From NCBI RefSeq assembly GCF_009914755.1, contig NC_060935.1: 64,000 nucleotides of DNA, one strand, 5' to 3'. This stretch comes from the human T2T-CHM13v2.0 reference genome, Homo sapiens. The position numbers were made by a program, and so were the translations under genes. Numbering within the stretch: the stretch's first letter is position 1; every line of letters starts with the position of its first letter. The notes under the pieces are model-generated. The model was given only the letters and a program-made list of their open reading frames with translations, did no database searches and was not told the DNA's origin. Shown here piece after piece: positions 47,889-64,000 of the stretch.

Positions 47889-48227
47889 CCCACTGCCTCC
47901 TGTCTATCTGAGGGCGTAAGGAGGGCAGGCCTTCAGGCACTCACATGCGGCCCTGGCCAGGGTCCCGGTCACACCTGCAGACCCTCAAGCCCTTCCCTAT
48001 GCCCCACTGACATAACCACCTGGCCCTGGGATCTGGTCCCACCGCGGGGCCCATTGTCCACTACCAGGACCCTCCTCTGCCTTCATCAGCACCAGGCGAC
48101 CTGGTGTCCACTCCTGGGCCAGGGCAGGGGAACCCTGGCTACACCTGGTCGAGTCAGACCTCCTGAAGCACCAGTGGCTGGGGTGGTCCACCCTAACCCT
48201 GTCAGCCGCTCAGCCTTAAATGTGATC

Positions 48228-49960
48228 ACTCGCTCAGTCAGTCGCCACCCACTCACTCACTCACCCACTCACTTATTCACTCACTCACCCACTCACTTAT
48301 TCACCCATTCACCCATTCACTCACCCATTCACTCACTCACTTATTCACTCACTCTCTCACTCATTCATTAATTCGCCCATTCACTCACACTTTCACTCAC
48401 TCACTTATTCACTCATACACTCATTCACTTATTTACTCACTCATTCACTCACTCATTAATTCACCCATTCACTCACTCACTTATTCACTCATAGACTCAT
48501 ACACTCACTCATTCACTCACGCATCCACTCATTCACTCACTCATTTACCCACTCATTCACTCATTCACTCACTCACTCATTTATTCACCCATTCACTCAC
48601 TCATTCATTCACTCACTCACTGACTCATTGACTCATTCCCTCACTCATTCACCCATTCACTTACTCATTCACTCACCCATTTATTCACTCACTCACTCAT
48701 TTACTCATTCATTCACCCATTCACTCACTCACTGACTCATTGACTCATTCACTCATTCACCCATTCACTTACTCACTCACTCATTTACTCACTCATTCAT
48801 TCATTGACTCATTAACTCATTCACTCTCTCATTCACTCACTCACTGACTCATTAACTCATTCACTCTCTCATGCATCCACTCATTCACTCACTCACTGAC
48901 TCACTCATTCACTCACTCATTGACTCACTCATTTGGTTATTCACTCATTCACTCACTCACTGACTCATTCACTCACTCATTCACTGCTCACTTATTCACT
49001 CTTTCACTATCTCTTTCATTCACATTCATTCATTAACTCAGTCACTCACTCATTCACTCTCACTCATTCACTTACTCATTTACTCATTCACTCATCTATT
49101 CATTCACTCATTCACTCACTCATTCATTCACCCATTCACTCATTCATTCACCCATTCACTCACTCACTTATTCACTCATAGACTCATACACTCACTCACT
49201 CATTGACTCACTCACTCATTCACTCATGCATCCACTCATTCACTCACTCATTTACTCACTCACTCACTCATCCACTCACTCACTCATTCATTCACCCATT
49301 CACTCAATCATTCATTCACTCACTCACTGACTCATTGACTCATTCCCTCACTCATTCACCCATTCACTTATTCATTCACTCACCCATTTATTCACTCACT
49401 CACTCATTTACTCATTCATTCACCCATTCACTCACTCATTCACTCACTCACTAACTCATTGACTCATTCACTCACTCATTCCCCCTTCACTTACTCACTA
49501 ACTTATTTACTCACTCATTCACTCACTCATTCATTGACTCATTAACTCATTCACTCTTTCACTCACTCACTGACTCATTCACTCATTCACTCACTCATTC
49601 ACTCACTCACCCACTCATTGACTCACTCATTCACTTATTCACTCATTCACTCACTCACTGACTCATTCACTCATTCACTGCTTGCTTATTCACTCTTTCA
49701 CTATCTCTCTCATTCACATTTATTCATTAACTCAGTCACTCACTCATTCACTCTCTCATTCACTTACTCATTTACTCACTCATTTACTCATTCACTCTCT
49801 CATTCACTTACTCATTTACTCACTCATTTACTCACTCACTCACCTGTTCACTCACTCGCTCACTCATTCACATTCATTTTAACTCACTCATTTACTCATA
49901 GACTCACTCATTTATCCACTTACTTATTCATTACCTCATTCATTCACTCACTCAATCATT
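48228..49960. repeat. MUC5AC upstream complex (TCAC/TCAT)n repeat, about 1.7 kb
   Basis: Nearly G-free + strand; ~0.7-kb higher-order duplication. Confidence 0.95.
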
Positions 49961-51137
49961 TTCCCTTTCCCCACACTCCTGCCACATGTGAAGTGCTCTT
50001 TCTCTAGGCACCTGGGCTAAGACAGGACATGGGGAGGGAAAGGCACAGAAATGGAGAAGTAGGCAATCATAAAGAGCTTGGGACGGGTCCCTAGAGAGCT
50101 GGAAGCAAGTGCTCAGAACAGCCTTGAGGCACCTCTTCGACCCTAACCCCTCTGCAGCAGGACAAAGGGCCCAGCCCAGCCTCTCCCTTTCCTGCCATTC
50201 CTCCCATGGGAGACCTTCTGGTTGGACGCTCCACATGGGCAGTGGAGCAGCCGACCTTGGCTGGGGAGTGTGTGGCTGCCTGGGAGGGAGAGTCTAGCCA
50301 CAGTGTCCAGCCACACACCTGTGGTCTGGGCAAGTGTTCATCACACAACAGCACCTTCTCAGCCAGAGCCCTTCAGGCCAAAGACTCACTGGGACCTTTC
50401 TGTGCTGGGACTGCTCGGACCAGTCAACAGCTTCCTGTCCAGAGGGTACTGAGCATTTCTGGATCTTGGTGGCCAGAGACCATCAAGTGACTTGAACTGG
50501 CCCTGCCCGCCTGGGGTCAGGAGACAGAAGCACAGGTGGACTCCTGGGCAATGCTGGGAGGGGGCTGCATGGTGAGGGAGGGGTTCTATCATTTGCCTGG
50601 AGGCTGCTGCCAGGAGCCCCTCTCCAGGGAGGGTGAGGCTGGCTGGCGCTACTTCAGTGGCAGCATGTGGCTGGCCTGAGGGACGCCTTGGCTCACTCAC
50701 TCCTCAATCACTCATTTACTCATTCATTCACTCACTCAATCATTTTTCCTTTCGCCACACTCCTGCCGCATGTGCTCTCTCTCTAGGCATCCGGGTAAGA
50801 CAAGACATGGGGAGTAAAAGGCACAGAAATGGAGAAATAGGTGACCATAAGGAGCTTTGGATGGGGCTGGGGCTGGCCTCTCCCTCCCAGGCAGCCACAC
50901 ATTCCCCAGCCAAGGTCGGCAGCTCCACTGCCCATGTGGAGGGTCCAACCAGGAGGTCGGCCATGGGAGGAATGGCAGGAAAGGGAAAGGCTGGGCTGGG
51001 CCCCCTGTCCTGCTGCAGAGGGATTAGTGTCAAAGAGGTGCCTTAAGGCTGTTCTGAGCACTCACTTCTGGGCACCAGGAACTCACAGGCTGCTGGGCAT
51101 GGCACGGTGCCCAGGGAGAGTCTAGGGTGGGGTATGT

Positions 51138-51370
51138 GGGGAGGACCCCTGCAGGCCAGGGCTTGGGGGGGCCCTCGGAAACTGGGCTCTACCCGGCAGA
51201 CACACCCATCTCCGCCTGCCACCGGCCGCTGGCCAGCCCGCAGTGAGCACCCACTGTTTACTTGGGTGAGGGGGAACCACAGGCCCCGCCCTGCCCACCC
51301 ACGTGAAGCACGGGGCTGGAGCCAGCTCTGGGGCTACAAAAAGCTCCTGCCACCTTGGGTCCCTCCTCAG
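51138..51370 (+). promoter_or_regulatory. MUC5AC: MUC5AC proximal promoter
   Basis: kB-like GGGGAGGACCCC at 51138, forkhead TGTTTAC at 51255, GC box CCCCGCCC at 51284, E-box/HRE CACGTG at 51300, TATA-like TACAAAAA at 51335; TSS inferred near 51365. Confidence 0.8.
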
Positions 51371-51412
51371 AGGCTGCTGAGGGACAGGGCACTCTTCCCC
51401 GCCGTCCACACA

Positions 51413-51485
51413 ATGAGTGTTGGCCGGAGGAAGCTGGCCCTGCTCTGGGCCCTGGCTCTCGCTCTGGCCTGCACCCGGCACACAG
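51413..51485 (+). CDS. MUC5AC: MUC5AC exon 1, signal peptide MSVGRRKLALLWALALALACTRHT
   Basis: ACAATGA start context; hydrophobic signal; GTACGG donor. Confidence 0.96.
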
Positions 51486-57934: not shown

Positions 57935-58034
57935 GTGAGGCTCCCCCGCCCCTGGGAAACACAGGTGCACCCCGACAACTAGGGGGCTGTGCTCCCATGG
58001 CCAAGCCTCGGAAGAAGGACCCCAGTCCTAGTGT

Positions 58035-58612
58035 CCCGGGCCCCTGAGGCTGACTGAGGCCCCTGTCCTGGGCCGCTGAGGCTGGCTGAGGATCCTGTCC
58101 TGGGCCCCCTGAGGCTGGCTGAGGCCCCTCTCCTGGGCCCCTAAGGCTGGTTGAGAATCCTGTCCTGAGCCTCCTGAGGCTGGCTGATGCCCCTGTCCCG
58201 GGCCCCTGAGGCTGGCTGAGGCCCCTGTCCTGGGCCCCTGAGGCTGGCTGAGGATCCTGTCCTGGGCCCCCTGAGGCTGGCTGATGCCCCTGTCCCGGGC
58301 CCCTGAGGCTGGCTGAGGATCCTGTCCTGAGCCCCCTGAGGCTGGCTGATGCCCCTGTCCCGGGCCCCTGAGGCTGGCTGAGGCCCCTGTCCCGGGCCCC
58401 TGAGGCTGGCTGAGGATCCTGTCCTGGGCCCCCTGAGGCTGGCTGAGGCCCCTGTCCTGGGCCCCTGAGGCTGGCTGAGGCCCCTGTCCTGGCCCCCTGA
58501 GGCTGGCTGAGGCCCCTGTCCCGGGCCCCTGAGGCTGGCTGATGCCCCTGTCCCGGGCCCCTGAGGCTGGCTGAGGCCCCCGTCCTGGGCCCCTGGAGCT
58601 GGCTGAGGCCCC
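58035..58612. repeat. MUC5AC intron 9 VNTR, 32-33-bp unit GGGCCCCTGAGGCTGGCTGAGGCCCCTGTCCY, about 17 copies
   Basis: Seen directly. Confidence 0.95.
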
Positions 58613-62546: not shown

Positions 62547-64000
62547 GGATTCACCCACTCACCCACCCGTTCACCCATTCACTCACTCACCCACTCACCC
62601 ACTCACCCACCTCACTCGCCGACTCAACCATTCACTCACCCATTCGCCCACTCACCTCACTCACTCACCCACTCACTCACTCACCTCACTCACTCACCCA
62701 CTCACTCACTCACCTCACTCACTCACCCATTCACCCATTCACTCACTCACCCACTCACCCACTCACCCACCTCACTCGCCGACTCAACCATTCACTCACC
62801 CATTCGCCCACTCACTCACCTCACTCACTCACCCACTCACTCACTCACCTCACTCACTCACCCATTCACCCATTCACTCACTCACCCACTCACCCACTCA
62901 CTCACCCATTCACCCATTCACCCACTCACTCACCTCACTCACTGACTCAACTATTCACTCACCCATTCGCTCACTCACTCACCTCACTCACTCGCCCACT
63001 CACCCACTCACGCTTTCACCCACTCACCTACTCACTCACCCACTCACCCATTCACCCACTCACTCACCCACTCACCGACTCACCCATTCACCCACTCACC
63101 CACTCACTCACCCACTCACCGACTCAACCATTCACTCACCCATTCACCCATTCACTCACTCGCCCACTCACCCACTCACCCATTCACCCACTCACCTACT
63201 CACTCACCCACTCACCCATTCACCCATTCACCCACTCACTCACCCACTCACCGACTCAACCATTCACTCACCCATTGCCCACTCACTCACCTCACTCACT
63301 CACCCACTCACTCACTCACCTCACTCACTCACCCACTCACCCATTCACCCATTCACTCACTCACCCACTCACCCATTCACCCATTCACTCACTCACCCAC
63401 TCACCCATTCACCCATTCACTCACTCACCCACTCACCCATTCACCCATTCACTCACTCACCCACTCACCCATTCACCCATTCACTCACTCACCCACTCAC
63501 CCACTCACTCACCCATTCACCCATTCACCCACTCACTCACCTCACTCACTGACTCAACCATTCACTCACCCATTTGCCCACTCACTCACCTCACTCACGC
63601 GCCCACTCACCCACTCACCCATTCACCCACTCACCTACTCACCCACTCACCCATTCACCCATTCACCCACTCACTCACCCACTCACCGACTCACCCATTC
63701 ACCCACTCACCCACTCACTCACCCACTCACCGACTCAACCATTCACTCACCCATTCACCCATTCACTCACTCGCCCACTCACCCACTCACCCACTCACCC
63801 ACTCACCTACTCACTCACTCACTCACCCATTCACCCACTCACCTACTCACTCACCCACTCACCCATTCACCCATTCACCCACTCACTCACCCACTCACCA
63901 ACTCACCCATTCACCCACTCACCCACTCACTCACCCACTCACTGACTCAACCATTCACTCACCCATTCACCCATTCACTCACTCGCCCACTCACCCACTC
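62547..64000. repeat. MUC5AC intron 15 (CACT/CACC/CATT)n complex repeat, runs past the window end
   Basis: Seen directly; a 160-bp block repeats at about 62608 and 62768. Confidence 0.95.

What the first reader, a model, noticed from the sequence alone, without database searches (positions are those of the whole stretch)
49930..51125. MUC5AC promoter built from a duplicated module with an internal ~190-bp inversion
Seen: block A (about 49930-50087) is repeated directly at about 50715-50865. Block B (50102-50292) reappears reverse-complemented at 50878-51068. The ORF track shows near-identical peptides on opposite strands (50109..50297 + and 50783..51061 -). Both modules end in GGAGAGTCTAG (50287 and 51115). 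The diverged inverted arms flank a 585-bp spacer and end about 300 bp from the TSS. Inference: duplication followed by inversion doubled the promoter motifs, and the arms could mediate spacer inversion or secondary structure.
Basis: partly seen in the sequence, partly recalled or inferred. Interest (0 to 1): 0.7.

Follow-up and report, generated by a model that had tools for sequence, protein, structure and literature searches.

The report
Old copy-paste insertion in MUC5AC promoter
The human MUC5AC mucin promoter holds two short stretches twice, one forwards and one backwards, likely left by a single DNA copying error in a primate ancestor, and the copy is probably an ordinary relic rather than a switch.

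Summary
The repeat is real. A (49928-50087) recurs directly at 50712-50865 (18 substitutions in 154 columns). B (50102-50303) recurs inverted at 50867-51068 (18 in 202), with a 563-bp spacer, ending 298 bp before the TSS. Each block has only these two copies in the genome searches, so it is not a transposon pair. A and B are equally diverged (Fisher p 0.48). An 8-mer of the neighbouring TCAC array flanks both ends of the second module (50694, 51059). The inferred age is about 25-55 million years. The shared GGAGAGTCTAG is not a module end. I found no sign that the arms are active: longest perfect run 26 bp, no homogenisation, and 13 Alu-like inverted pairs of similar geometry nearby. All five mapped promoter elements I could place lie outside the arms. 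One open point: both arms carry glucocorticoid half-sites, and a recalled repressive GRE falls in B'. Other primates and inversion alleles could not be checked. Not found in print in my searches. Low interest.

The parts
48226..49958 (+). TCAC array (the published MUC5AC upstream VNTR enhancer); its 3' tail is the inferred first template
   Evidence: PMC6449733, PMC4041751
49928..50087 (+). Block A, inferred template copy
50088..50101 (+). 14-bp linker between A and B, absent from the second module
50102..50303 (+). Block B, inferred template copy, left arm; GRE-like half-sites at 50115 and 50159
50304..50691 (+). Single-copy spacer S with the published NF-kB probe (50401-50422), c-Ets1 site (50428-50436) and CRE (50488-50495)
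50694..50701 (+). 8-mer CACTCACT, left flank of the inferred 365-bp insert
50692..50865 (+). A': TCAC tract (50692-50742) plus direct copy of A
50867..51068 (-). B': inverted copy of B, right arm; abuts A' with one base between; GRE-like half-sites at 51006 and 51050
51059..51066 (+). 8-mer CACTCACT, right flank (inferred target-site duplication / return microhomology)
51113..51125 (+). 13-mer identical to 50285-50297; no flanking homology; unexplained, possibly chance
51288..51302 (+). HCR-Gli core promoter element (published as essential), outside the duplicated blocks

Best explanation
The second module (about 50694-51058, 365 bp) is likely a templated insertion made in one replication or repair event in a primate ancestor, and it probably has no role as a hairpin or an inversion switch today. 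Inferred path: synthesis reached a short CACTCACT site then about 300 bp before the TSS and slipped to the same 8-mer in the tail of the TCAC array some 780 bp upstream. It copied the array tail and A forwards, switched strand at the far end of B and copied B backwards. It then returned to the original site through an imperfect 10-bp match, duplicating the 8-mer. The copies have since drifted apart by about 10%. Shown: the copies, their orientation, divergence and junction sequences. Inferred: direction of copying, single event, age, neutrality.
For: Only two copies of A and B in the genome by DNA, pattern and protein search, and no third copy by profile in 284 kb of 11p15.5. Equal divergence: 18 of 154 vs 18 of 202, Fisher p 0.48; without CpG sites 12 of 144 vs 13 of 192, p 0.68. 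CACTCACT at 50694 and 51059; the second is the only array-phase 8-mer outside TCAC tracts in 49960-51420; background 55 in 482,796 positions gives about 0.001-0.005 for a 10-40 nt window, post hoc; the 8-mer occurs 64 times in the array. The flanking 10-mers match at 9 of 10, and the reverse of B's first 10 nt matches the right flank at 8 of 10. No homogenisation: longest perfect run 26 bp vs 35.5 expected for random mismatches. NF-kB, c-Ets1, CRE, proximal NF-kB and HCR-Gli sites lie outside the arms. Reporters cut to -280 and -125 from the ATG, lacking both arms, are described as still active (PMC4148389).
Against: No outgroup sequence was available, so the empty site and the direction are untested. 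The A'-B' junction has at most 2-3 bp of microhomology. The two mismatches that create the right 8-mer (CA vs TG) could also be decay of one CpG. The 13-mer at 51113 is unexplained (shuffle P 0.006-0.016; 3 of 338 real chunks). Four of the five GRE half-sites in the region sit in the arms and are intact in both. The equal-age test has low power, and I saw only the text, not the figure values, of the reporter series.
Confidence: 0.6

Rival explanations
1. Same origin, but the insert was co-opted: B' brought glucocorticoid and other sites close to the TSS and moved the NF-kB/Ets/CRE block 365 bp away, changing regulation in simians.
For: TGTYCT half-sites at -360 and -316 in B', mirrored at -1207 and -1251 in B. 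From memory (Chen et al. 2006, not held), a functional repressive GRE5 lies at -369 to -351; that interval is in B' and contains the -360 half-site.
Against: The GRE5 coordinate is recalled and was not found in the library. Half-sites are common 6-mers. With 91% identity, intact motifs are expected without selection. Cross-mammal homology is reported only within about 200 bp of the ATG (PMC4148389).
Confidence: 0.15
2. Two steps: direct duplication of A-linker-B, then inversion of the B copy in place.
For: A stays next to B in both modules; the 13-mer at 51113 could be a leftover direct end.
Against: The linker is missing from module 2, the motif already has a counterpart inside B', 51069-51112 does not align to B (P 0.33), and the flanking 8-mer is not explained. 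Equal divergence does not separate the two models.
Confidence: 0.13
3. The arms are an active inverted repeat that flips the spacer in some people or folds back at a meaningful rate. A flip would move the NF-kB probe site from -965 to about -618 and the CRE from -878 to about -691.
For: Single-stranded fold -336 kcal/mol, z -22. At 91% it is the most similar of 14 inverted pairs of at least 190 bp with gap up to 1 kb in the sample. In yeast, divergent and distant Alu pairs still pair in long single-stranded DNA (PMC10164571).
Against: In double-stranded DNA that paper reports 15- and 58-fold lower rates at 94% and 86% identity and about 20-fold lower at a 200-bp spacer. Longest perfect run 26 bp, no conversion signal. 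13 Alu-like pairs of similar geometry in 284 kb. The word 'inversion' does not occur in the 206-haplotype MUC5AC paper or its three supplements, although its aim was VNTRs.
Confidence: 0.05
4. B encodes or once encoded a short peptide under constraint.
For: Excess of silent differences in one frame.
Against: P 0.046 after choosing among six frames, one of many tests run; the only ATG in B's frame (50235) leaves 21 codons; no Pfam match, no parent gene (best other hit E 1.3), no annotated transcript in the gene table.
Confidence: 0.03
5. B and B' are independent insertions of a transposon.
For: Most local inverted pairs here are repeats: 32 of 33 are high-copy. No Dfam or RepeatMasker library was available.
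Against: A family with copies 9% apart would give other hits; only two were found. A is duplicated with B. An ancient, decayed element inside the template is not excluded but would not change the origin.
Confidence: 0.02

Closest known systems
Local n-jumps / templated insertions (copy-and-paste; FoSTeS/MMBIR-type), as described in PMC7025897 (passages)
   Same: Local templates copied, low copy gain, clustered breakpoints, mix of inverted and direct junctions, short microhomology.
   Different: That paper describes somatic events in cancers; this one is germline, fixed or near fixed, under 400 bp, and about 10% decayed.
Short-range template switching and microinversions in ape genomes (PMC7954356 listing; PMC8755829 passages)
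   Same: Strand switch at short inverted microhomology leaves an inverted copy of nearby DNA.
   Different: Those definite microinversions are 17-33 nt and copy-neutral; here 202 bp is copied inverted together with a direct copy, with three junctions.
Long inverted repeats such as inverted Alu pairs (PMC10164571 passages)
   Same: Arms of 200-300 bp, 80-95% identity, spacer of hundreds of bases.
   Different: The arms are single-locus DNA made by duplication, not dispersed repeats; no instability shown.
MUC5AC upstream TCAC VNTR enhancer (PMC6449733 whole text; PMC4041751 and PMC11344006 passages)
   Same: Adjacent, and supplies the head of A'.
   Different: The VNTR varies in length and has reporter activity; the -1433 to -1 amplicon that holds B, S, A' and B' had one length in all lines tested, which does not test inversion.

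Membership tests
Local templated insertion (n-jump, FoSTeS/MMBIR-like) | Extra copies of nearby templates with both direct and inverted junctions | tested here: met
Local templated insertion (n-jump, FoSTeS/MMBIR-like) | Microhomology at junctions | tested here: inconclusive
   8-mer and 8-of-10 match at the outer two junctions (post hoc P about 0.001-0.005); at most 2-3 bp at the inner one
Local templated insertion (n-jump, FoSTeS/MMBIR-like) | All pieces of one age | tested here: inconclusive
   no difference, p 0.48 and 0.68, low power
Local templated insertion (n-jump, FoSTeS/MMBIR-like) | Empty site in an outgroup | not testable with these tools
   no related genomes held
Transposable element pair | Dispersed copies elsewhere in the genome | tested here: not met
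   2 matches only; none in 284 kb by profile; the DNA search skips very common words
Transposable element pair | Match to a Dfam/Repbase family | not testable with these tools
   no such library; the RepeatMasker figure of PMC6449733 is a picture
Cruciform-forming / recombinogenic inverted repeat | Very short spacer and near-perfect arms | tested here: not met
   563-bp spacer, 91%, longest run 26 bp against the ranges in PMC10164571
Cruciform-forming / recombinogenic inverted repeat | Arm homogenisation by conversion | tested here: not met
   arms no more alike than the direct pair; no long identical tract
Inversion polymorphism | Both orientations seen among haplotypes | not testable with these tools
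   one genome held; inversion catalogue paper not held; supplements of PMC13755911 hold no full call set in the places shown
Segmental duplication (at least 1 kb, at least 90%; definition recalled) | Length of 1 kb or more | tested here: not met
   365 bp
Duplicated cis-regulatory module | Tested elements present in both copies | tested here: inconclusive
   5 of 5 placed elements lie outside the arms; recalled GRE5 in B' could not be verified

The most novel reading that the evidence does not exclude
One replication slip in a simian ancestor, primed by the TCAC repeat, rewired MUC5AC: it placed a reversed copy of an upstream block 300-500 bp from the start site, created the proximal glucocorticoid-repression site there, and pushed the NF-kB/Ets/CREB block 365 bp away. 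Steroid control of airway mucin would then be partly primate-specific and poorly modelled in mice.
Probability: 0.12. Interest if true: 0.55.

Novelty: new member of a known kind. Interest (0 to 1): 0.24.

Why it matters
MUC5AC drives mucus plugging in asthma and marks gastric lineage, and its promoter is widely used in reporter, ChIP and primer work. Knowing that about a quarter of the proximal 1.45 kb is a second copy matters in practice: probes, primers, guides and short reads in A or B can hit two places, and single-site mutations may be masked by the mirror copy. As biology it is a tidy example of a germline templated insertion with readable junctions. It would matter more only if B' proves to carry a working steroid element or an inversion allele exists.

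Tried and rejected
Paralogy with the MUC5B or MUC2 promoters: highest z 2.6 among 24 block-strand comparisons, no real match. Homology between the spacer end and the DNA upstream of the array, expected if the duplication reached further: none, P 0.68. The 13-mer as a module end: rejected. Structured RNA: one Rfam match at E 0.74, far below its cut-off. Peptides: no Pfam family, no parent gene. PMC6365035 deletion series: its two cloning primers differ from the best window match at 8 of 25 and 5 of 20 bases, so its coordinates were not used. PMC5312001 ChIP data come from mouse lung, not used. A profile search of the whole genome was not available, so distant dispersed relatives stay open. Papers not held: PMC9563103, PMC2644199, PMC3989721, PMC3547101. 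Supplements that could not be read and may bear on repeat annotation, conservation or inversion lists: PMC6449733 figure, PMC8755829, PMC4148389 (none held).

Full report
Observation. The repeats are as described, with slightly longer arms. A (49928-50087) recurs directly at 50712-50865 and B (50102-50303) recurs reverse-complemented at 50867-51068, 202 nt with 18 mismatches and no gaps, spacer 563 nt. The order is TCAC array, A, 14-bp linker, B, unique spacer S (388 bp), TCAC tract plus A', reversed B', proximal promoter, TSS at 51366 (TSS from the supplied gene table). The matching peptides follow from the ungapped inverted copy.

Copy number. DNA searches of the window's genome gave 2 matches for B, 2 for A and 1 for S. 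A 35-nt pattern with up to 3 mismatches gave the same 2 places and 0 for its control. The translated frame found the 2 arms and nothing else below E 1.3. Profiles of A and B over 284 kb of the region found no third copy (best other E 0.87). The MUC5B and MUC2 promoters show no match. The DNA search warns that it skips very common words, and no repeat library was available, so an ancient decayed element inside the template is not excluded. In the same 284 kb (243,774 bases after masking tandem repeats), 33 inverted pairs of at least 80 bp lie within 3 kb; 32 are high-copy, Alu-like by their sequence, and B/B' is the only low-copy one. It is locally unusual in origin but not in geometry: 13 of the 14 pairs of at least 190 bp with gaps up to 1 kb are such repeats, at 70-87% identity.

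Age. Substitutions are 18 of 154 in A and 18 of 202 in B (Fisher p 0.48). Pooled 36 of 356 gives a corrected distance of 0.109 (0.076-0.152), or 27-54 million years for rates of 2.0 to 1.0 x 10^-9 per site per year, outer range 19-76 (rates recalled). Non-CpG divergence, 25 of 336 (7.4%), sits in the lower quartile of 399 local Alu-like pairs (median 9.7%; 399 of 400 sampled kept). A simian or catarrhine ancestor is the inference. It fits reports that the array is shared by human, chimpanzee, rhesus and baboon but not mouse, horse, cat or dog (PMC6449733, whole text; the group's earlier paper also lists cetaceans).

Junctions and mechanism. A' abuts B' with one base between, and the linker is missing. 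The 8-mer CACTCACT stands at 50694 and again at 51059, exactly at the two ends of module 2. The second is the only array-phase 8-mer outside TCAC tracts in 49960-51420; such 8-mers occur 55 times in 482,796 background positions and this one 64 times in the array. The flanking 10-mers match at 9 of 10, and the reverse of B's first 10 bases matches the right one at 8 of 10. The simplest reading is one insertion of 365 bp with three template switches: from a short CACTCACT site into the array tail, from the end of A to the far end of B on the other strand, and back to the original site. This gives a direction (module 1 template, module 2 copy) and a testable empty site. The test was post hoc, the inner junction shows at most 2-3 bp of microhomology, and CpG decay could also give the two bases that complete the right 8-mer.

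Do the arms act? A single strand folds back strongly, which only restates the repeat. The longest perfect run is 26 bp, below the 35.5 expected from random placement, so there is no trace of conversion. In yeast, Alu pairs lose 15- to 58-fold activity at 94-86% identity and about 20-fold at a 200-bp spacer, although they still pair in long single-stranded DNA (PMC10164571, passages). The 206-haplotype study does not use the word inversion in text or supplements (PMC11344006, passages and supplement search); the mucin pangenome preprint discusses inversion at MUC4/MUC20 in the passages shown (PMC13345508, 12 of 29 places). Neither was built to test this spot.

Do the copies regulate? Placed on the window, the NF-kB probe (-965 to -944), c-Ets1 (-938 to -930) and CRE (-878 to -871) lie in S, and the second NF-kB region (-237 to -203) and HCR-Gli (51288-51302) lie in the proximal promoter (PMC3891072 and PMC3282431, passages). 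Reporters lacking both arms are described as active down to -125 from the ATG, cross-mammal homology is reported within about 200 bp, and the authors name only HCR-Gli and -4010 to -1433 as regulatory (PMC4148389, parts 1-3 of 6 and passages; figure values not seen). Against neutrality: four of five GRE half-sites in the region are in the arms, and a functional GRE5 recalled at -369 to -351 falls on the B' half-site; the source papers were not held. A silent-change excess in one frame (10 of 17 codons, best-of-six P 0.046) has no other support.

Known kind and novelty. The structure works like a local n-jump, a copy-and-paste rearrangement with mixed junctions (PMC7025897, passages), here small, old and germline. 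'MUC5AC promoter' with 'inverted repeat' gave 0 papers; a six-term search on MUC5AC inversion gave 6, none on this spot by title and abstract start or by the passages read in two of them; searches listed nothing on it. The library lacks most subscription papers, including the original promoter cloning work. Verdict: real, likely undescribed, a new member of a known kind, probably inert; interest 0.24.

Noticed in passing
window 50606-50675 vs 58032-58612: The tail of the spacer aligns without gaps at about 69% to the 32-bp intronic VNTR of MUC5AC (score 26 vs 12.5 +/- 1.6; 0 of 300 shuffles, 0 of 298 real chunks). Possibly an older local copy; a genome search with this stretch found only itself.
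   Followed up: partly
window 48226-49958 and 62551-64000: The TCAC array occurs both upstream and in an intron of MUC5AC at about 74% identity; both VNTRs are described in PMC11344006.
   Followed up: partly
window 50103-50303 (+) and 50867-51067 (-): 10 of 17 changed codons between the arms are silent in one frame (P 0.009 single frame, 0.046 best of six). Unexplained, likely chance.
   Followed up: yes
window 51068-51076 and 51106-51114: A 9-bp inverted repeat brackets the 46 bp between the end of B' and the 13-mer (read); chance level not tested.
   Followed up: no
PMC6365035, promoter cloning primers: Neither primer matches the window (best 8 of 25 and 5 of 20 mismatches), so its 'human' deletion coordinates should be checked.
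   Followed up: partly
L015 317-414/2221-2319; L004 5858-5943/7104-7189; L021 3817-4034: Other two-copy local direct duplications of 86-113 bp at 89-93% identity in 11p15.5: small local copies are not rare here.
   Followed up: no
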